Assembly: GCA_028707125.1 (NCBI GenBank)
Contig: JAQTUX010000002.1
Coordinates: forward strand, 80,355-144,354
Source of the DNA: Candidatus Omnitrophota bacterium
GTDB taxonomy: Bacteria; Omnitrophota; Gorgyraeia; Gygaellales; JAQTUX01
DNA: 64,000 bases
Reading direction: 5' to 3'
Shown: positions 39,115 to 48,982 of the stretch, one piece after another
How the letters are laid out: every line of letters begins with the position of its first letter
Numbering within the stretch: the first letter of the stretch is position 1
The notes under the pieces: generated by a model
Database searches by the model: none
What the model was told of the DNA's origin: nothing
Seen by the model: the letters and a program-made list of their open reading frames with translations, nothing else
Position numbers and translations under genes: made by a program

Positions 39115-39825
39115 TTAAAATAACTCCTCTAGGTCGTCCCTGAAATAATTAAGCGTTCTAAGCTCATCCGGATCCATGCTGCAAGCGTGGTCCGGCCCAA
39201 ACATGTCCCTATTCAGGGTAAAGTGTTTCTCGATAATCTTAGCCCCACGGGATAAGGCAGCGATTGCGCACGACAGCCCTTTAGTATGGTCGCTCAACCC
39301 CGCGTATTTCATGAAATCCACGCTGCCGAGTTTAACCTCTGAGAAGGGGGCCGGATATTTAGGGATACAGTAAAGAAAATCTACCCCCGCCTCATTATCG
39401 ATACGGGGGAAACCCTCACCCTTCCACATCCCCAAAGAAACCAAGAGGGGTTTTCCGGTACGACACAGGCAATCAAGCAAATCTTTATTATAAATAGAGC
39501 GCGAAGCCACCTTGTAACGCCTCACCCCGATGTCCTCCAGCCAGGCAACGCGTTCTGTATCAAATACGGAGGCAAAAAATTCAATACCCGCCTTTTTACA
39601 TTCTCCGGAAAGCATGATTACCTGTTCCCGCGACAGCTCTGTTCTACGGTTATAGTCAAACCAGGGGTTGTTTTCCACGGAAAACAGCTCTCGCGCATTA
39701 TACAGTTGGAATTTAACGGCATCCGCACCGTTCTTTTTAGCGGAACCGATCATATCGCAGGCAAGCCGCATATCGCCGTTATGATTCTGCCCTATCTCGG
39801 CAATAATTTCTGATTTCAATTGCAT
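39115..39825 (-). CDS. NeuB/PseI/SpsE-family sialic-acid-type (nonulosonic/ulosonic acid) synthase, short form lacking SAF domain
   Basis: IIAEIGQNHNGDMRLACDMIGSAKKNGADAVKFQLY is the hallmark NeuB N-terminal TIM-barrel motif. Only 236 aa, versus about 340 aa for typical NeuB. Confidence 0.7.
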   Translation of the reverse strand: MQLKSEIIAEIGQNHNGDMRLACDMIGSAKKNGADAVKFQLYNARELFSVENNPWFDYNRRTELSREQVIMLSGECKKAGIEFFASVFDTERVAWLEDIGVRRYKVASRSIYNKDLLDCLCRTGKPLLVSLGMWKGEGFPRIDNEAGVDFLYCIPKYPAPFSEVKLGSVDFMKYAGLSDHTKGLSCAIAALSRGAKIIEKHFTLNRDMFGPDHACSMDPDELRTLNYFRDDLEELF

Positions 39826-41669
39826 AGTTCCAACCAGTGGTTTAACATTATATACGTAAAAATTGTGTGGCCGTTTAGCCGGACATCATCAAGCATCATT
39901 TCTCTCGCCTTAACCAGGCTGCCTTCATGAATTATCCCCTGTTTATATAGTGCTGAATCGCGGGAGAAGGCCTCTTCAATCATAAAGGACCATTTATCTT
40001 TAAGCCAATGATCTATTGGAACGTTAAAGCCGTGCTTTGGACGGGATATGATCTCATCCGGTAGAATATCTTCAAACGATTTTCGCAGAGCCCACTTTAA
40101 GACGCCCCCCCTTATCAAATGGTGATACTGTAATTTCTCAGCGTGAGAAAGCACGCTTGGGGCCACAAACGGAGCGCGGCCTTCAACGGAATAAGCCATA
40201 GTCATACGGTCCACCTTACTCAACATTTCATTGGGGAGGTAAAATATCCTGTCCTGCCTTATGTAATCAATGCCCTGCCATTCACTATGCGGGTTAAATT
40301 CATGGAAGAAACGCAGAGATGAACCTGCGCCGTCAAAAATATCCTGTGAAAACAACTGCCTCTTTTCACCTTCTGAGGCGTAATAATGCCAGGCCCATGC
40401 CCTCTCCTGCGGGCTATAAAATCTTAAAACGGCCATCCTTTCATCAAGGGACATTCCGAGATTCTGAAATGAAATACTTTGCCCGCCCGGGGCGTCCGGC
40501 CCCGCAATGCCGATACCTTCCGGTATGTGGCTGTACCAGGAATATCCGCCAAAATTTTCGTCTGCGCCGTCTCCGGACAACAAGACCTTAATCCCTGCAT
40601 CCCTGGCAGCTTTCGCTATCGCCAACAGCCCCAGACCGGAAGAGACGGAAAATGGCTGATCGGCGTATCTGCAGAAATCATCCAGTGACTTTAAGAACGT
40701 GTCGGCAGCCACCCTGATAGTACAATGACGGGTACCTAATTGCCTTGCGTAGGCCTCAGCATAAGATGATTCATCTGTGTGCCCGTGATAAGGATCGGCT
40801 AAATTTTCGAACCCTATGGTAAAAGTGGTCAGGCCGTCTAAATGGCGCGCCGCAAGCGCAACTACAATTGAGCTGTCCAGTCCTCCGCTCAAGAATGCCC
40901 CCACGGGAACATCCGAAAGCAAACGGCTGACTACGGCCTCCTCCACCACCCTTCTTGTTTCAGAGATTATAGAATCATCATTACAAACTATGGCATTTCT
41001 ATTAAACTTATTGCCATAGCGTCTTATTCTTATTCCGGAATCATCTGCGATAAGTATATGCCCTGGAGGCAGTGACTGGATCGAACTATAAATCGTCTGC
41101 GGCTCGGGAATCCAGAGAAAAGTAGGCAAGTCCCAAATCGCCTGGTAATTCAAATCCAGGTCCAGATCCGGGAATAATTTAACACTCCTGACCTGAGAGG
41201 AAAAGACGATCTCCCTGTCTGATATCTTTGAAAAATATAACGGCTTCTCTCCGGGTATGTCTCTTGCCAAAATCAATTTCTTCTCACGCTCCACCCAAAG
41301 CGCCGCAGCGAACATGCCGTCTAACCTCTCAAACAATCCGTCTCCATATTCATCGTAGAGATGACAAATAACCTCGCCGTCTGAAGACGTACGGAATCTA
41401 TATCCTTTCGCCTCAAGCTCCCTTCTTAATTCAGGTGAATTATAAATCTCGCCATTATACAAAAGCACTACGGATTTATCGGCGTTAAAAAGCGGCTGGT
41501 TCCCTGTCTTCAGATCGTTTATCATGAGCCTTCTCATACCGGCATGATAATCTCCCGATGCATAGAACCCTGCGGCATCGGGCCCTCTGTTATAGAGCGC
41601 CTTGATCATCGCCTCCAGCACCGAACGGTCAACTGGCCTGGTTACTTTATAACCCGCAATGCCACACAT
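39816..41669 (-). CDS. Asparagine synthetase B-like glutamine-dependent amidotransferase
   Basis: MCGIAGY Ntn-glutaminase start and PP-loop FLSGGLDSS. Confidence 0.85.
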   Translation of the reverse strand: MCGIAGYKVTRPVDRSVLEAMIKALYNRGPDAAGFYASGDYHAGMRRLMINDLKTGNQPLFNADKSVVLLYNGEIYNSPELRRELEAKGYRFRTSSDGEVICHLYDEYGDGLFERLDGMFAAALWVEREKKLILARDIPGEKPLYFSKISDREIVFSSQVRSVKLFPDLDLDLNYQAIWDLPTFLWIPEPQTIYSSIQSLPPGHILIADDSGIRIRRYGNKFNRNAIVCNDDSIISETRRVVEEAVVSRLLSDVPVGAFLSGGLDSSIVVALAARHLDGLTTFTIGFENLADPYHGHTDESSYAEAYARQLGTRHCTIRVAADTFLKSLDDFCRYADQPFSVSSGLGLLAIAKAARDAGIKVLLSGDGADENFGGYSWYSHIPEGIGIAGPDAPGGQSISFQNLGMSLDERMAVLRFYSPQERAWAWHYYASEGEKRQLFSQDIFDGAGSSLRFFHEFNPHSEWQGIDYIRQDRIFYLPNEMLSKVDRMTMAYSVEGRAPFVAPSVLSHAEKLQYHHLIRGGVLKWALRKSFEDILPDEIISRPKHGFNVPIDHWLKDKWSFMIEEAFSRDSALYKQGIIHEGSLVKAREMMLDDVRLNGHTIFTYIMLNHWLELCN

Positions 41670-41693
41670 ACACTCAGAATCCCCTATACGTCA

Positions 41694-42422
41694 CTACGCC
41701 CGCAGATACCTCGCTCTATTGCGCAATATATTCAAGACATCTCTAGAGGTAAAAGCAAACTTATCTTGTAATTCGCCGATAATTGAGCTGACCATCGGCA
41801 GGTCTTCCGGAAAATCTACTGTGAGCCGCGTCTGCCTGGCAGATTCCGGGTTTAACTCCGCGTCTATAAATCTGGTTAAGAATTCATCTTTGTTCTCAAT
41901 AATGAATCTTGTAACATGCTCCAGATCCTCTTTAACATTGGTTGATTTAGCCGCCTTCTTAAGCGCCCGCAGAGCAACTGCCTCTGAATAAAACCCGCTG
42001 GCGCAGGTCTCCCTGTCGGGTGAAATATAATCCAGCTTATCCTCAATCAACGCATTCAACATTGACTCCATTAAAGAAATATCCACAAGAGGGGTATCGC
42101 CGCAGACCCGAGCGATATAATCCGCGCCTATTGAATCTGCTGCCAGGACATATCTCTCCAAGACGTTATCCAAACTGCCCCTCATCACAGGGATATTATT
42201 ATCCCTGCAGTAAACATATAACTCGTTATCAGATTTATCATGCGATGTGGCGACTAAAATATTTCCTATTGATGAGCTTTTGCATCTTCTATATATATAT
42301 TCAATGAGCGGCATGCCGGCAAGGCGGGATATGGTCTTCTTAGGAAACCTGCGGGATGACATCCTCGCCTGTATAATAATCGCACACCTGTTTATCTCAT
42401 TACATCCGACAACCATAATCAA
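41694..42422 (-). CDS. Cytidylyltransferase, SpsF/PseF-like (CTP_transf_3 family)
   Basis: CAIIIQARMSSRRFPKKTISRLAGMPLIEYI N-terminal signature. Confidence 0.7.
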   Translation of the reverse strand: MIMVVGCNEINRCAIIIQARMSSRRFPKKTISRLAGMPLIEYIYRRCKSSSIGNILVATSHDKSDNELYVYCRDNNIPVMRGSLDNVLERYVLAADSIGADYIARVCGDTPLVDISLMESMLNALIEDKLDYISPDRETCASGFYSEAVALRALKKAAKSTNVKEDLEHVTRFIIENKDEFLTRFIDAELNPESARQTRLTVDFPEDLPMVSSIIGELQDKFAFTSRDVLNILRNRARYLRA

Positions 42423-48323: not shown

Positions 48324-48914
48324 TTAGGTCTGGATAACCAGACTTTCTTCTTCTGTATCCTTATTACTGCCTCTTTGTGAAGCTAGGGCGTTGCTCAGCA
48401 ATCCCGAGTTAAATAAGTCAAACAGATTCTGTGCCTTCTCTTTAATACCCTTGAGCTCTACCAGCCGCTGCTTGAAGATCTTTGCCGACTCCTCATCTCC
48501 ATTATTGCCATCCGGGCCGGCCGACTCAAACACACTGTCTGCTGAACCTATCATATCTTCCACTTCTGATAAGCGGCCCTGCACTAATGACCTCACTCTT
48601 TCCATGATCACCTTATAAATATCACTCTCAGCCTCATAATAGTCCTTCCTTGAACCCCTCATCCAGACCCTCTTTACCGCCCCGTATCTTTCAAGCGCCC
48701 GTATATTAACGCTGACGCTCCCCTTGCTGATCTTCAGGGCCTCTGCCATCTCATCAAGAGACATTACCCTGCCGTTAAGATAAAGAAGCGCGTAAAGCTG
48801 TGCCATTATATTATTCAGCCCAAATTTACTGCATATCTGGTTTATCTTATTCATGAAAACATTCTGCGCCTGCGTCAACTTATCTTCCATAATATTCTCC
48901 TTTATATTGTTCAT
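48324..48914 (-). CDS. GbsR/MarR-family winged-helix transcriptional regulator
   Basis: LYALLYLNGRVMSLDEMAEALKISKGSVSVNIRALERYGAVKRVWMRGSRKDYYEA closely parallels the GbsR signature (YAYLYL..PMSLD..A..L..SKGAVS...L...V.KVW.KGSRKD.YEA). Has an acidic C-terminal tail. Confidence 0.8.
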   Translation of the reverse strand: MNNIKENIMEDKLTQAQNVFMNKINQICSKFGLNNIMAQLYALLYLNGRVMSLDEMAEALKISKGSVSVNIRALERYGAVKRVWMRGSRKDYYEAESDIYKVIMERVRSLVQGRLSEVEDMIGSADSVFESAGPDGNNGDEESAKIFKQRLVELKGIKEKAQNLFDLFNSGLLSNALASQRGSNKDTEEESLVIQT

Positions 48915-48938
48915 TTAGAACGTTTAGAATGTTCTAAA
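48914..48938 (-). promoter_or_regulatory. Palindromic putative operator (TTTAGAAC-N9-GTTCTAAA, with nested TTTAGAA-TG-TTCTAAA) overlapping the regulator start codon
   Basis: Read directly from the sequence atTTAGAACgTTTAGAAtGTTCTAAAta. The 8-bp arms are perfect inverted repeats. Confidence 0.45.
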
Positions 48939-48965
48939 TATAGCACATAACTGCCCTACTGTCAA
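48937..48965 (-). promoter_or_regulatory. Sigma70-like promoter: -35 TTGACA, 17-bp spacer, -10 TATATT (minus strand)
   Basis: Minus-strand reading gives ...TTTGACAgtagggcagttatgtgcTATATTtagaac.... The -10 hexamer lies about 22 nt upstream of the regulator ATG, with no Shine-Dalgarno between them. Confidence 0.45.
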
Positions 48966-48982
48966 ATACTTACTTCTCTGAT

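What the first reader, a model, noticed from the sequence alone, without database searches (positions are those of the whole stretch)
39115..48982. Regulated sub-operon combining an FkbH/ACP acyl module with nonulosonic-acid-type sugar enzymes
Reading right to left on the minus strand, one tightly coupled run of genes sits behind a strong promoter and a GbsR-type regulator:
- SAM methyltransferase
- FkbH-like HAD-IIIC loader (DLDNVLWGG motif) with a GNAT-like tail
- ACP
- MaoC dehydratase
- SDR
- AAC(3)-like N-acyltransferase fused to DUF4910
- SpsF/PseF-like cytidylyltransferase
- AsnB-like amidotransferase
- short NeuB-like synthase

From established knowledge, FkbH proteins load a glycerate-derived (glyceryl) unit onto a dedicated ACP. 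NeuB, CMP-transferase and amidotransferase enzymes build and activate sialic-acid-like sugars.

My inference is that the ACP-tethered C3 acyl group is tailored by dehydration, reduction and O-methylation, and then N-transferred onto an amino nonulosonic / ulosonic acid by the AAC(3)-like domain before CMP activation. This would be an ACP-dependent route to an unusual N-acyl (glyceroyl-, lactyl- or methoxy-acyl-type) acidic sugar. To my knowledge this combination has not been worked out.
Basis: partly seen in the sequence, partly recalled or inferred. Interest (0 to 1): 0.8.

Follow-up and report, generated by a model that had tools for sequence, protein, structure and literature searches.

The report
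ACP-fed sugar N-acylation gene module
An uncultured Omnitrophota bacterium has, behind one promoter, a gene kit that probably puts an unusual three-carbon acyl group on a cell-surface sugar acid, next to a separate, widespread and unstudied cassette that builds that kind of sugar; the kit's gene neighbourhood is already known from Campylobacter and Clostridium, so this is a new variant, not a new kind.

Summary

The run is not one dedicated pathway. It joins two modules that are inherited separately.

- Module A is the methyltransferase, FkbH, ACP, MaoC, SDR and the AAC(3)-like/DUF4910 fusion. It belongs to a gene neighbourhood already in the literature: C. jejuni Cj1295 to Cj1302, tied genetically to 2,3-di-O-methylglyceroyl-pseudaminic acid, and C. 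acetobutylicum CA_C2195 to CA_C2199 (PDB 3k9t). Its enzymology is still unsolved. The same gene order occurs in Patescibacteria, Planctomycetales and Defluviitaleaceae, usually beside PseB/PseC/NeuB genes. The ACP travels with the acyltransferase: 41 of 62 loci, against 0 of 18 where DUF4910 is alone.
- Module B is the cytidylyltransferase, AsnB, a NeuB without its SAF domain, and a GT2/CMP-synthetase fusion at 37742-39112, just outside the finding. This cassette is conserved, widespread and uncharacterised, and it occurs without module A. The regulator and promoter belong to it.

No canonical Pse or Leg precursor genes lie in the window, so the acceptor sugar is unproven.

Most likely mechanism, by inference: glyceryl-ACP is converted to lactyl-ACP (possibly O-methylated), and the acyl group is then swapped for an N-acetyl group on a CMP-ulosonic acid.

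Novelty: a new variant of a known kind. Interest is moderate.

The parts
48937..48965 (-). Sigma-70-type promoter-like site, TTGACA-17-TGcTATATT, with an extended -10
   Evidence: Matches 11 of 12 positions, the best in 36000-52500, and lies in the 68-nt intergenic gap. The same architecture, TTGACA-17-TATAAT, precedes the orthologous regulator in L119.
48914..48938 (-). Operator-like inverted repeat TTTAGAAC-N9-GTTCTAAA, overlapping the end of the -10 element and the likely transcription start
   Evidence: Read directly from the sequence. L119 has the palindrome TTTAAAACGTTTTAAA at the same position relative to its -10. Function is inferred.
48324..48914 (-). Winged-HTH regulator, GbsR/MarR-like. 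The likely true start is the ATG at 48890, behind an AAGGAG.
   Evidence: Pfam HTH_24, MarR_2 and TrmB. NCBIfam CudC at 81 bits, below its cut-off. A 44%-identical orthologue lies directly upstream of module B in L119.
47612..48289 (-). SAM-dependent methyltransferase (module A, or an accessory to it)
   Evidence: Methyltransf_23/11 and the motif ILDVGQGDG. Small methyltransferases recur next to module A in L019, L007 and L172.
45817..47607 (-). FkbH-family loader: FkbH_N, a HAD-IIIC phosphatase domain and a C-terminal GNAT-like Cys domain
   Evidence: TIGR01686 at 299 bits against a cut-off of 147. In 12 homologues D245, D247, S295, K329, D351, D352 and C514 (in the SCR motif) are invariant. 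PDB 3slr matches the N-terminal and HAD parts.
45581..45820 (-). Dedicated acyl carrier protein
   Evidence: PP-binding, with the WDSF serine motif. Overlaps the FkbH stop by 4 nt.
45181..45606 (-). MaoC-type (R)-specific hot-dog dehydratase/hydratase
   Evidence: MaoC_dehydratas, E 6e-21. The hydratase-2 motif GLSGDFNPIH is present. It is fused to an SDR in L135.
44475..45191 (-). Short-chain dehydrogenase/reductase (ketoreductase-like)
   Evidence: adh_short, E 6e-27, with GGSGGIG and YITSK motifs. Occupies the same position in L015, L019 and L005.
42419..44482 (-). Fusion of an AAC(3)-like N-acyltransferase (aa 1 to about 265) with DUF4910/DUF2172/HTH_47 (aa about 266-687)
   Evidence: Pfam. 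PDB 3k9t matches at E 3e-115, and AAC(3), YokD and FrbF match weakly. H171 and E174 are kept in at least 90% of 66 NAT sequences. The zinc ligands H442, D448 and H579 correspond to His189, Asp195 and His324 of 3k9t. Fused forms appear in 32 of 80 genome loci.
41694..42422 (-). Stand-alone SpsF/KdsB-like cytidylyltransferase (module B)
   Evidence: CTP_transf_3. Below every NCBIfam equivalog cut-off. PDB 6oew matches at E 1e-21. 55% identical to the L119 orthologue.
39816..41669 (-). AsnB-type glutamine-dependent amidotransferase (module B)
   Evidence: Asn_synthase plus GATase_7, with the MCGIAG nucleophile and the SGGLDSS PP-loop. An AsnB lies directly upstream of the short NeuB in 38 of 40 evaluable loci.
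39115..39825 (-). NeuB-like PEP-condensing synthase lacking the SAF domain (module B)
   Evidence: NeuB Pfam, E 6e-52. Below the NeuB and PseI equivalog cut-offs. Equivalents of NmNeuB E25, K53, Q55, K129, H215, E234, H236 and D247 are kept, and N184 is lost. It belongs to a large family of about 232 aa.
37742..39112 (-). GT2 glycosyltransferase fused to a CMP-sugar-synthetase-like domain. It is part of module B and lies outside the finding's coordinates.
   Evidence: Glycos_transf_2 plus a weak CTP_transf_3 match. The C-terminal part matches CMP-NeuAc synthetases 1eyr and 1qwj and, weakly, PseF. A full-length orthologue follows the short NeuB in 30 of 45 evaluable loci.

Best explanation
The interval is a composite of two separately inherited modules, transcribed from one probably autoregulated promoter inside a glycan-biosynthesis supercluster of more than 74 kb in an Omnitrophota genome.

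Module A runs from 42419 to 48289. It is a member of the Cj1295/CA_C2195-type N-acyl editing kit.
1. FkbH takes a glycerate-derived C3 unit and puts it on its own ACP. The family assignment is shown here; the substrate follows from established knowledge of FkbH enzymes.
2. The MaoC dehydratase turns glyceryl-ACP into pyruvoyl-ACP, and the SDR reduces that to lactyl-ACP. This is inferred by analogy with lactate starter-unit formation in polyketide synthases.
3. The methyltransferase may O-methylate the acyl group. This is inferred.
4. The mono-zinc DUF4910 domain removes an existing N-acetyl group from a nucleotide-activated amino sugar acid. The fused AAC(3)-like domain then transfers the ACP-borne acyl group onto the freed amine. 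This acyl swap is inferred.

Module B runs from 37742 to 42422. It is an independent, widespread and uncharacterised cassette. A NeuB lacking the SAF domain condenses PEP with an unknown aldose into a 2-keto-3-deoxy (ulosonic) acid. Cytidylyltransferase domains activate it, AsnB amidates a carboxyl or acyl function, and the fused GT2 passes a sugar on. Its product is the most likely, but unproven, acceptor of module A's acyl group.
For: Domain calls.

Catalytic residues:
- FkbH.
- NAT His/Glu pair and the DUF4910 zinc site.
- MaoC, SDR, ACP and AsnB motifs.
- Short NeuB.

Synteny of module A:
- FkbH-ACP-MaoC-SDR-NAT-DUF4910 occurs in L015, L019 and L005.
- MaoC and SDR are fused next to FkbH in L135.
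- NAT and DUF4910 are fused in 32 loci and adjacent in 30 of 80.

The ACP is present in 41 of 62 loci that have a NAT and in 0 of 18 that have DUF4910 alone, Fisher 1.8e-7. Without Lachnospiraceae the counts are 13 of 31 against 0 of 18, p 0.0016.

The closest module-A relatives sit in PseB/PseC/NeuB/CTP clusters: L007, L172, L010, L023, L028.

Literature:
- Cj1295 is required for Pse5(2,3-di-O-methylglyceroyl)7Ac, whose CMP-linked form was identified by MS, NMR and metabolomics. Its authors proposed that it removes the 5-N-acetyl group (PMC3068675).
- A C. jejuni strain in which the fkbH-domain gene cj1302 is a pseudogene also lacks these glycans, though that paper does not link the two (PMC7099621).
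- The neighbourhood and fusions were noted, and a conserved mono-zinc site was found in 3k9t (PMC4000134).
- Deacetylation followed by re-acylation of CMP-nonulosonic acids occurs in Kuenenia (bioRxiv 10.64898/2026.04.20.719630).

Module B as a unit.

Module-A-type genes lie beside module B elsewhere: L106, L116, L156, L157, L135, L167, L170.
Against: - No PseB/PseC/PseH/PseG or LegB/C/H/G-type genes lie in the window or in the 10 kb beyond its right end. An amino group on module B's product is therefore assumed, not shown.
- A NeuB without the SAF domain lacks the arginine that binds the N-acetyl group of ManNAc (PMC8208679). Its aldose may carry no nitrogen.
- The A-B linkage is not conserved. 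Module B occurs alone in Desulfomicrobium orale, L090 and L119, and module A occurs with canonical pse genes elsewhere.
- DUF4910 lacks the two catalytic residues of M28 peptidases. Most homologues have NNE where the window has ND.
- About 30 Lachnospiraceae genomes carry NAT-DUF4910 + ACP + MaoC among housekeeping genes, with no glycan genes nearby.
- GT2 enzymes do not normally use CMP-sugars.
- Nothing here is biochemical.
Confidence: 0.5

Rival explanations
1. Module A acylates a different amino sugar of the large cluster, for example the product of the DegT aminotransferase and epimerase/dehydratase pair just beyond 62970. It is not aimed at the product of the short NeuB. Its position next to module B is mosaic cluster assembly.
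For: - A DegT gene lies directly upstream of 62970-63920 on the same strand.
- The window also holds a WbuX-like N-acetyl-sugar amidotransferase at 10309-12294.
- Module B is self-contained elsewhere.
- The short NeuB lacks the SAF domain that binds an N-acetyl group.
Against: - Module A lies between module B's regulator and module B's first gene, with overlapping or near-abutting reading frames.
- DUF4910, NAT or FkbH/MaoC-SDR genes recur right after module B in seven independent metagenome contigs.
- In relatives the kit sits with NeuB and cytidylyltransferase genes.
Confidence: 0.2
2. The transferred acyl group is not lactyl or methoxypropanoyl. Either it stays glyceroyl or O-methylglyceroyl as in C. 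jejuni, or MaoC and the SDR process another ACP thioester such as 3-hydroxybutyryl or crotonyl, and this FkbH-like protein does not use 1,3-bisphosphoglycerate.
For: - MaoC + ACP + NAT-DUF4910 occurs without FkbH in many loci, so MaoC does not need a glyceryl substrate.
- Most FkbH + ACP + NAT + DUF4910 loci lack MaoC and an SDR: 9 of 12.
- The only chemically defined product of such a locus is 2,3-di-O-methylglyceroyl.
Against: - Where FkbH, MaoC and the SDR co-occur they are contiguous and in a fixed order. In L135 MaoC and the SDR are fused next to FkbH.
- Beta-elimination from a 2,3-dihydroxyacyl thioester followed by reduction of the 2-keto group has a precedent in lactate starter units of polyketide synthases (own knowledge).
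Confidence: 0.18
3. One reading: all nine genes form one dedicated linear pathway. An amino nonulosonic acid is made by the short NeuB, N-acylated from the ACP, and only then CMP-activated.
For: - The genes are contiguous and co-directional behind one promoter.
- The gene families are the right kinds.
Against: - The set splits into two modules with separate distributions.
- No precursor genes for an amino aldose are present.
- The CMP-linked di-O-methylglyceroyl-Pse identified in C. jejuni, the acetamidino modifications of Campylobacter, and the Kuenenia deacetylation/formylation all point to editing at the CMP-sugar level.
- FrbF, a relative with the AAC(3) fold, acts on a CMP conjugate (own knowledge).
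Confidence: 0.08
4. The AAC(3)-like domain is an ordinary acetyl-CoA-dependent N-acetyltransferase, and DUF4910 is a non-catalytic scaffold. The FkbH/ACP/MaoC/SDR genes feed some other product, such as an O-acyl group or a lipid.
For: - All characterised members of PF02522 use acetyl-CoA.
- DUF4910 lacks the M28 catalytic residues.
- 21 of 62 NAT loci show no ACP within 10 kb.
Against: - The ACP is strongly and specifically linked to the NAT: 41 of 62 against 0 of 18.
- The zinc-binding His residues are invariant in 83 homologues, and identity across phyla is very high.
- The cj1295 mutant loses exactly the non-acetyl acyl group.
Confidence: 0.06

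Closest known systems
Campylobacter jejuni NCTC 11168 flagellin-glycosylation segment Cj1295 to Cj1302
   Same: - A DUF2172/DUF4910 protein (Cj1295), an adjacent N-acetyltransferase (Cj1296/7) and an fkbH-domain gene (cj1302), all in a nonulosonic-acid locus.
- Cj1295 is needed for a glycerate-derived N-acyl group, 2,3-di-O-methylglyceroyl, on pseudaminic acid.
- ACP genes and a SAM methyltransferase also lie in that segment (own knowledge).
   Different: - Here NAT and DUF4910 are one polypeptide, and MaoC and an SDR are added.
- There are no pse genes, Maf transferases or phase-variable tracts.
- The partner is a cassette built on a NeuB without SAF.
- Direct sequence comparison with the Cj proteins was not possible with these tools.
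Clostridium acetobutylicum CA_C2195 to CA_C2199 neighbourhood (PDB 3k9t; PMC4000134)
   Same: - DUF4910/DUF2172/HTH_47 protein: E 3e-115 to 3k9t, with the same His/Asp/His zinc site.
- Beside it lie an aminosugar N-acetyltransferase, an ACP, an 'N-acetyltransferase + HAD phosphatase' protein (FkbH-like), SpsE (NeuB) and SpsF.
- Fusions are noted in the paper.
   Different: - That locus has a full-length NeuB with SAF, a Maf-type transferase and no MaoC or SDR.
- Its function was only proposed from context.
FkbH/FkbJ-type glyceryl-ACP formation (methoxymalonyl-ACP and tetronate pathways)
   Same: FkbH domain above the family cut-off, with HAD motifs, the conserved Cys and a dedicated stand-alone ACP (PMC7489565).
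   Different: - No FkbK/FkbI-type dehydrogenases, no FkbG-type O-methyltransferase and no polyketide synthase.
- The acyl group is handed to an N-acyltransferase in a glycan cluster.
Lactyl-ACP starter-unit formation from glyceryl-ACP by a dehydratase and a ketoreductase (FR901464 and bryostatin loading modules; own knowledge, not checked here)
   Same: An FkbH loader followed by a hot-dog dehydratase and a reductase acting on an ACP-bound C3 unit.
   Different: - Those are domains of a polyketide synthase.
- Here they are free MaoC and SDR proteins, and homology to those domains was not tested.
Deacetylase plus formyltransferase editing of CMP-legionaminic-type sugars in Ca. Kuenenia stuttgartiensis (bioRxiv 10.64898/2026.04.20.719630)
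   Same: The logic of removing an N-acetyl group and re-acylating at the nucleotide-sugar level within a NulO cluster.
   Different: - The enzyme families are different or unstated.
- The donor is a formyl group, not an acyl-ACP.
Canonical NeuB/PseI/LegI synthases with NeuA/PseF/LegF
   Same: TIM-barrel fold, metal and PEP residues, and a neighbouring cytidylyltransferase.
   Different: - No SAF domain, and scores below all equivalog cut-offs.
- Always paired with an AsnB and with a GT2 fused to a CMP-synthetase-like domain.
- No precursor genes nearby.

Membership tests
FkbH family (TIGR01686) | Score above the curated family cut-off | tested here: met
   299.4 bits against a cut-off of 146.65, and HAD-IIIC at 62.5 against 35.75.
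FkbH family (TIGR01686) | HAD motifs I-IV (DxD, Ser/Thr, Lys, DD) | tested here: met
   D245, D247, S295, K329, D351 and D352 are invariant in 12 homologues.
FkbH family (TIGR01686) | Conserved Cys in the C-terminal GNAT-like domain (acyl-S-enzyme site; its role is from own knowledge) | tested here: met
   C514 in the SCR motif is invariant in 12 of 12.
FkbH family (TIGR01686) | Dedicated ACP partner | tested here: met
   A PP-binding ORF overlaps the FkbH stop codon. 10 of 12 FkbH-bearing loci have an ACP.
FkbH family (TIGR01686) | Uses 1,3-bisphosphoglycerate to form glyceryl-ACP | not testable with these tools
   Needs an enzyme assay or ACP mass spectrometry.
Cj1295/CA_C2195-type DUF4910 proteins | DUF4910 + inserted DUF2172 + C-terminal HTH_47 architecture | tested here: met
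   E 7e-104, 1.5e-34 and 7e-25. 3k9t matches at E 3e-115 over residues 266-667.
Cj1295/CA_C2195-type DUF4910 proteins | Mono-zinc site His189/Asp195/His324, with Ser191 and Pro225 replacing the M28 catalytic residues | tested here: met
   H442, D448, H579, S444 and P478 align to these residues.
Cj1295/CA_C2195-type DUF4910 proteins | Neighbourhood with an aminosugar N-acyltransferase, an ACP and an FkbH-like protein | tested here: met
Cj1295/CA_C2195-type DUF4910 proteins | Required for a non-acetyl N-acyl group on a nonulosonic acid | not testable with these tools
   Shown genetically only for Cj1295.
AAC(3) aminoglycoside N-acetyltransferases | Antibiotic_NAT fold with the His/Glu catalytic pair | tested here: met
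   PF02522 at 126 bits. H171 and E174 are conserved.
AAC(3) aminoglycoside N-acetyltransferases | Reaches a resistance-enzyme equivalog score | tested here: not met
   AAC_3 at 56 bits against a cut-off of 270, and AAC_3_IV at 53 against 420. It is not a resistance enzyme.
NeuB/PseI/LegI nonulosonic acid synthases | NeuB TIM barrel with metal and PEP residues | tested here: met
   PF03102 at 177 bits. Residue mapping to 1xuu/2wqp.
NeuB/PseI/LegI nonulosonic acid synthases | C-terminal SAF (antifreeze-like) domain carrying the substrate-binding Arg | tested here: not met
   The protein ends at residue 236, about 10 residues past the last aligned barrel residue. No SAF hit.
NeuB/PseI/LegI nonulosonic acid synthases | Equivalog score | tested here: not met
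   NeuB_NnaB at 198.7 bits against 399.65, and PseI at 152.8 against 340.25.
Canonical pseudaminic or legionaminic acid pathway | PseB/LegB dehydratase, PseC/LegC aminotransferase, PseH/LegH acetyltransferase and PseG/LegG hydrolase near the synthase | tested here: not met
   None among the 53 window ORFs. tblastn with PseB, DegT and NeuC queries finds only a 28% DegT match beyond the window.
CMP-sugar synthetases (NeuA/PseF/KdsB) | CTP_transf_3 fold | tested here: met
   41694-42422 scores 86 bits. The C-terminal half of 37742-39112 matches 1eyr, 1qwj and PseF weakly.
CMP-sugar synthetases (NeuA/PseF/KdsB) | Equivalog score for a named enzyme | tested here: not met
   Best is a KdsB subfamily model at 60 bits against cut-offs of 193-255. 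PseF scores 23 against 206.
GbsR-type regulators | Family model match | tested here: inconclusive
   CudC (GbsR family) at E 1e-22 but 81 bits against a cut-off of 218. Generic wHTH Pfam hits lie near threshold.

The most novel reading that the evidence does not exclude
The conserved triad of AsnB, a NeuB without SAF, and a GT2/CMP-synthetase fusion is a previously unrecognised and very widespread pathway to a non-canonical ulosonic acid derivative, for example a carboxamide or another amidated form, made from a common aldose.

In this genome the NAT-DUF4910 fusion acts as a bifunctional de-N-acetylase and acyl-ACP-dependent N-acyltransferase. It edits that CMP-sugar with an FkbH-derived lactyl or 2-methoxypropanoyl group. 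That would be the first ACP-dependent editing of the N-acyl group on a nucleotide sugar.
Probability: 0.2. Interest if true: 0.7.

Novelty: new variant of a known kind. Interest (0 to 1): 0.45.

Why it matters
Which enzymes put N-glyceroyl, di-O-methylglyceroyl and related acyl groups on pseudaminic and legionaminic acids is still open. For Tannerella forsythia the literature says a candidate gene 'remains elusive'. [quoted passage not shown] For C. jejuni only Cj1295 has genetic support.

These groups shape flagellar and S-layer glycan antigenicity.

This locus adds three things:
- A natural fusion of the two candidate editing activities.
- Comparative evidence that the ACP goes with the acyltransferase and not with DUF4910.
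- A variant with MaoC and an SDR that predicts a different acyl product.

It also exposes a common, unstudied cassette built around a NeuB without its SAF domain.

The same genes occur in cultured bacteria, including Lysinibacillus antri, Schinkia azotoformans, Metabacillus arenae, Desulfosporosinus acididurans and Desulfomicrobium orale. The ideas can be tested there more easily than in this uncultured organism.

Tried and rejected
- A second 'paralogous module' at 22720-30444. Only the two GT2-CTP fusions are related, at 23% identity. The 614- and 639-aa proteins and the two cytidylyltransferases are not. Rejected as a duplication of module B.
- GT2-CTP fusion hits next to stand-alone DUF4910 in Methanobacteriaceae and Acidobacteriaceae. 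These cover only the GT2 half, so they mean nothing.
- AlphaFold of the 614-aa protein at 35872-37716 without an alignment. Mean pLDDT was 36, which is unusable. No fold search was run.
- Pfam and NCBIfam give nothing for 35872-37716, 22720-24639, 16748-18364 or 53056-53769.
- Rfam and tRNA scans of the whole window found nothing.
- Literature searches for an FkbH link to nonulosonic acids, or for an AsnB + NeuB pairing. They returned only the cj1302 mention and an untested AsnB proposal in T. forsythia.
- Composition. Module A does not differ in GC or GC3 from its neighbours, so there is no sign of recent transfer.
- Exact look-up of the leftmost protein failed. The Logan contig starts about 2.9 kb inside the window, so the window probably comes from the 510-kb NCBI contig of the same organism.
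- Direct alignment to the C. jejuni or Kuenenia proteins was not possible. No tool holds those sequences.

Full report
**1. What is there**

The window is 64 kb in which every substantial ORF lies on the minus strand. Pfam and NCBIfam scans of all 53 ORFs describe one very large glycan-biosynthesis cluster. It holds:
- many GT2, GT4 and GT-C (PMT_2) transferases;
- four AsnB-like amidotransferases;
- four B12-radical-SAM enzymes, plus one radical-SAM enzyme without a B12 domain;
- an ABC exporter and a pyruvyl transferase.

The cluster continues at least 10 kb beyond the right end.

An exact-sequence look-up places the DNA on a 104-kb Logan contig. A 100%-identical protein is annotated on a 510-kb NCBI contig of a Candidatus Omnitrophica MAG.

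Successive genes overlap or abut: +4, -4, -26, -11, -8, -4, +24, -10 and +2 nt.

The 68-nt gap upstream of the regulator holds TTGACA-17-TGcTATATT. This is the best promoter match in 16.5 kb. An inverted repeat, TTTAGAAC-N9-GTTCTAAA, follows it directly.

**2. The run is two modules, not one pathway**

A search with the 236-aa NeuB-like protein shows that it belongs to a large family of proteins of about 232 aa. Identity among the top hits is 60-70%. About 100 of the best 150 representatives of 50%-identity clusters are 220-260 aa long.

In Desulfomicrobium orale and in an unrelated 1-Mb contig this protein sits in the string AsnB, short NeuB, GT2-CTP fusion, cytidylyltransferase. There is no FkbH, ACP or DUF4910 nearby.

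Across 80 metagenome loci:
- an AsnB is the immediate upstream gene in 38 of 40 evaluable cases;
- a full-length GT2-CTP fusion is the immediate downstream gene in 30 of 45.

Identities to the window proteins are 55-70% for AsnB, 62-67% for the short NeuB and 48-63% for the GT2-CTP fusion.

The closest locus is L119. It reads regulator (44% identical), cytidylyltransferase (55%), AsnB (70%), short NeuB (67%), GT2-CTP fusion (63%), with nothing in between. It has the same promoter layout, followed by the palindrome TTTAAAACGTTTTAAA.

So the regulator and promoter belong to this cassette, which I call module B. Its fourth gene, 37742-39112, lies just outside the finding. The methyltransferase-to-DUF4910 block, module A, sits between the regulator and module B in this genome.

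**3. Module A is a known neighbourhood**

The 687-aa protein is an AAC(3)-like N-acyltransferase fused to DUF4910/DUF2172/HTH_47. Its C-terminal 420 residues match PDB 3k9t, C. acetobutylicum CA_C2195, at E 3e-115.

The paper on that structure (PMC4000134) reported:
- a conserved neighbourhood, with fusions, of this protein with an aminosugar N-acetyltransferase, an ACP, an 'N-acetyltransferase + HAD phosphatase' protein, SpsE (NeuB) and SpsF;
- a conserved mono-zinc site, His189/Asp195/His324, without the M28 catalytic residues.

The window protein keeps these positions as H442, D448 and H579, with S444 and P478.

In C. jejuni 11168:
- the family member Cj1295 is required for Pse5(2,3-di-O-methylglyceroyl)7Ac, and its authors proposed that it removes the 5-N-acetyl group (PMC3068675; family assignment in PMC6321876);
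- Cj1296/7 next door is an N-acetyltransferase;
- cj1302 is described as an fkbH-domain gene, and the one strain in which it is a pseudogene also lacks these glycans, although that paper does not connect the two observations (PMC7099621).

The statement that the combination 'has not been worked out' is therefore only half right. The neighbourhood, one genetic link and one product are published. The enzymology is not. As late as 2026 cj1295 is still listed among 'four putative transferases' (PMC13130089).

**4. New comparative evidence on module A**

A scan of one genome per GTDB species returned 80 loci from many phyla.

- NAT and DUF4910 are fused in 32 loci, adjacent in 30, and DUF4910 stands alone in 18.
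- An ACP lies within 10 kb in 41 of the 62 loci with a NAT, and in none of the 18 without one. Fisher p is 1.8e-7. Leaving out Lachnospiraceae the counts are 13 of 31 against 0 of 18, p 0.0016. This is the best available argument that the AAC(3)-like enzyme, not DUF4910, is the partner of the acyl-ACP.
- The full window order, FkbH-ACP-MaoC-SDR-NAT-DUF4910, recurs in a Patescibacteria genome (L015), a Planctomycetales genome (L019) and a Defluviitaleaceae MAG (L005, where a split transketolase is inserted).
- MaoC and an SDR are a single polypeptide next to FkbH in L135, where they lie downstream of a module B cassette.
- The nearest relatives of the window's module A (L007, L172) and several Bacillales (L010, L023, L028) place the kit inside PseB/PseC/cytidylyltransferase/NeuB+SAF clusters. 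L172 adds a phosphopantetheinyl transferase.

Catalytic residues are intact:
- FkbH: D245, D247, S295, K329, D351, D352 and C514 are invariant in 12 sequences.
- NAT: H171 and E174 are kept in at least 90% of 66 sequences.
- MaoC has GLSGDFNPIH, the SDR has GGSGGIG and YITSK, and the ACP has WDSF.

**5. Most likely mechanism**

Shown here: the family memberships, intact active sites, synteny and the ACP-NAT linkage.

Inferred:
1. The hot-dog dehydratase eliminates the 3-hydroxyl of glyceryl-ACP to give pyruvoyl-ACP. The SDR reduces this to lactyl-ACP, and the methyltransferase may cap the hydroxyl.
2. The mono-zinc DUF4910 domain is a de-N-acetylase.
3. The fused NAT domain re-acylates the freed amine from the ACP.
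4. This happens on a nucleotide-activated sugar.

Point 4 rests on four things:
- the CMP-linked di-O-methylglyceroyl-Pse identified in C. jejuni;
- the 2026 preprint showing deacetylation and formylation of CMP-nonulosonic acids in Kuenenia, and trace free-amine CMP-sugars in C. jejuni;
- my recollection that FrbF, which has the AAC(3) fold, acts on a CMP conjugate.

**6. The weak point is the acceptor**

The window has no PseB/PseC/PseH/PseG or Leg equivalents. The only DegT lies beyond the right end and is not PseC-like.

The short NeuB keeps the equivalents of E25, K53, Q55, K129, H215, E234, H236 and D247 of the meningococcal enzyme. It has lost N184 and the whole SAF domain, which carries the arginine that holds the N-acetyl group of ManNAc. 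NeuBs without SAF are known as a mostly environmental clade with no assigned substrate (PMC8208679).

In favour of module B's product carrying an N-acyl group, the cassette is often followed by:
- WbuX/HisH/HisF-type N-acetyl-sugar amidotransferases, methyltransferases and a carbamoyltransferase;
- in seven contigs, DUF4910, NAT or FkbH + MaoC-SDR genes.

Against it, module B also occurs alone, and module A occurs with ordinary pse genes.

I therefore put 0.5 on the composite explanation and 0.2 on an acceptor elsewhere in the cluster.

**7. Comparison and novelty**

The locus works like the Cj1295 and CA_C2195 neighbourhoods and passes their architectural tests.

It is not an aminoglycoside resistance enzyme: AAC_3 scores 56 bits against a cut-off of 270. 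It is not a canonical NeuB, PseI or PseF either, because all equivalog cut-offs are missed and there is no SAF domain.

What differs from the described cases:
- the NAT-DUF4910 fusion, which the 2014 paper had already noted in general terms;
- the MaoC + SDR tailoring pair, which recurs in several phyla and which I did not find discussed;
- the pairing with the cassette built on a NeuB without SAF.

That makes it a new variant of a known kind. Interest is moderate. The open question of who installs glyceroyl-type acyl groups on nonulosonic acids becomes more testable, but the same genes are available in cultured bacteria.

The more novel lead is module B itself.

Noticed in passing
window 37742-42422; L087-L091, L092-L171: A conserved cassette of AsnB (about 620 aa), a NeuB without SAF (about 232 aa), a GT2/CMP-synthetase fusion (about 460 aa) and a cytidylyltransferase. 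It is widespread in metagenomes and present in cultured Desulfomicrobium orale, next to KdtA- and KdsB-like genes. AsnB and the short NeuB almost always overlap. I found no characterised member.
   Followed up: partly
L119 4880-4950 and window 48914-48965: Both regulators are preceded by TTGACA-17-TATA(A/T)T and then an A/T-rich palindrome containing AAACGTT. This suggests a conserved, autoregulated operator.
   Followed up: partly
L017, L025, L030-L037, L041-L047 and others (about 30 Lachnospiraceae loci): A fused NAT-DUF4910 followed by an ACP and MaoC lies among housekeeping genes (PlsY, an FKBP/trigger-like protein, Sir2, rpsF, ssb), with no glycan genes within 10 kb. This does not fit a purely glycan-editing role for the kit.
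   Followed up: partly
window 42419-44482: The NCBI record of this organism annotates only the C-terminal 417 aa (DUF4910). The window has an uninterrupted 687-aa ORF, and independent assemblies contain 680-715-aa fusions. The N-terminal acyltransferase domain is probably missed in the public annotation.
   Followed up: partly
one search hits; L011-L013, L026: Stand-alone DUF4910 proteins are 60-73% identical to the window domain across Omnitrophota, CPR bacteria, Nanoarchaeota and Methanobacteriaceae. That is unusually high conservation for a glycan-tailoring enzyme. Most have NNE where the window and 3k9t have ND(G/N) at the third zinc-ligand position.
   Followed up: partly
window 24649-30444: A second GT2/CMP-synthetase-like fusion (23% identical to 37742-39112) sits with a PseF-like cytidylyltransferase, two D-2-hydroxyacid dehydrogenases, a ketol-acid reductoisomerase and a FabG-like SDR. 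This may be another activated hydroxy-acid or sugar-acid branch.
   Followed up: partly
window 10309-12294: A 661-aa fusion of a GlmS-type class-II glutamine amidotransferase domain with a WbuX-like N-acetyl-sugar amidotransferase domain (142 bits, below the cut-off of 203). It implies an acetamidino sugar in this glycan.
   Followed up: no
L005 6859-8600; L031 1989-3822: A split transketolase (N and C halves) lies beside FkbH and the ACP in two unrelated loci. It recalls the transketolase-derived glycolyl-ACP units of some non-ribosomal peptide pathways (own knowledge).
   Followed up: no
window 30398-35868: Two B12-radical-SAM enzymes, an Ldh_2-family dehydrogenase (ureidoglycolate/sulfolactate dehydrogenase-like) and a GFO/IDH/MocA oxidoreductase follow module B, tightly coupled on the same strand. 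Their roles are unknown.
   Followed up: no
window 1155-4958: The left end of the cluster encodes a GT4 fused to DUF218, a FemAB-like Acetyltransf_6 protein and a polysaccharide deacetylase.
   Followed up: no
window 35872-37716, 22720-24639, 16748-18364, 53056-53769: Four ORFs of 237-639 aa have no Pfam or NCBIfam match. A single-sequence AlphaFold model of the first was unusable.
   Followed up: partly
L002 (window about 64000-73900): The cluster continues upstream with DegT, a DAO-family oxidase, E1-type dehydrogenase alpha and beta subunits, a GHMP kinase, a nucleotidyltransferase and two more B12-radical-SAM genes.
   Followed up: no
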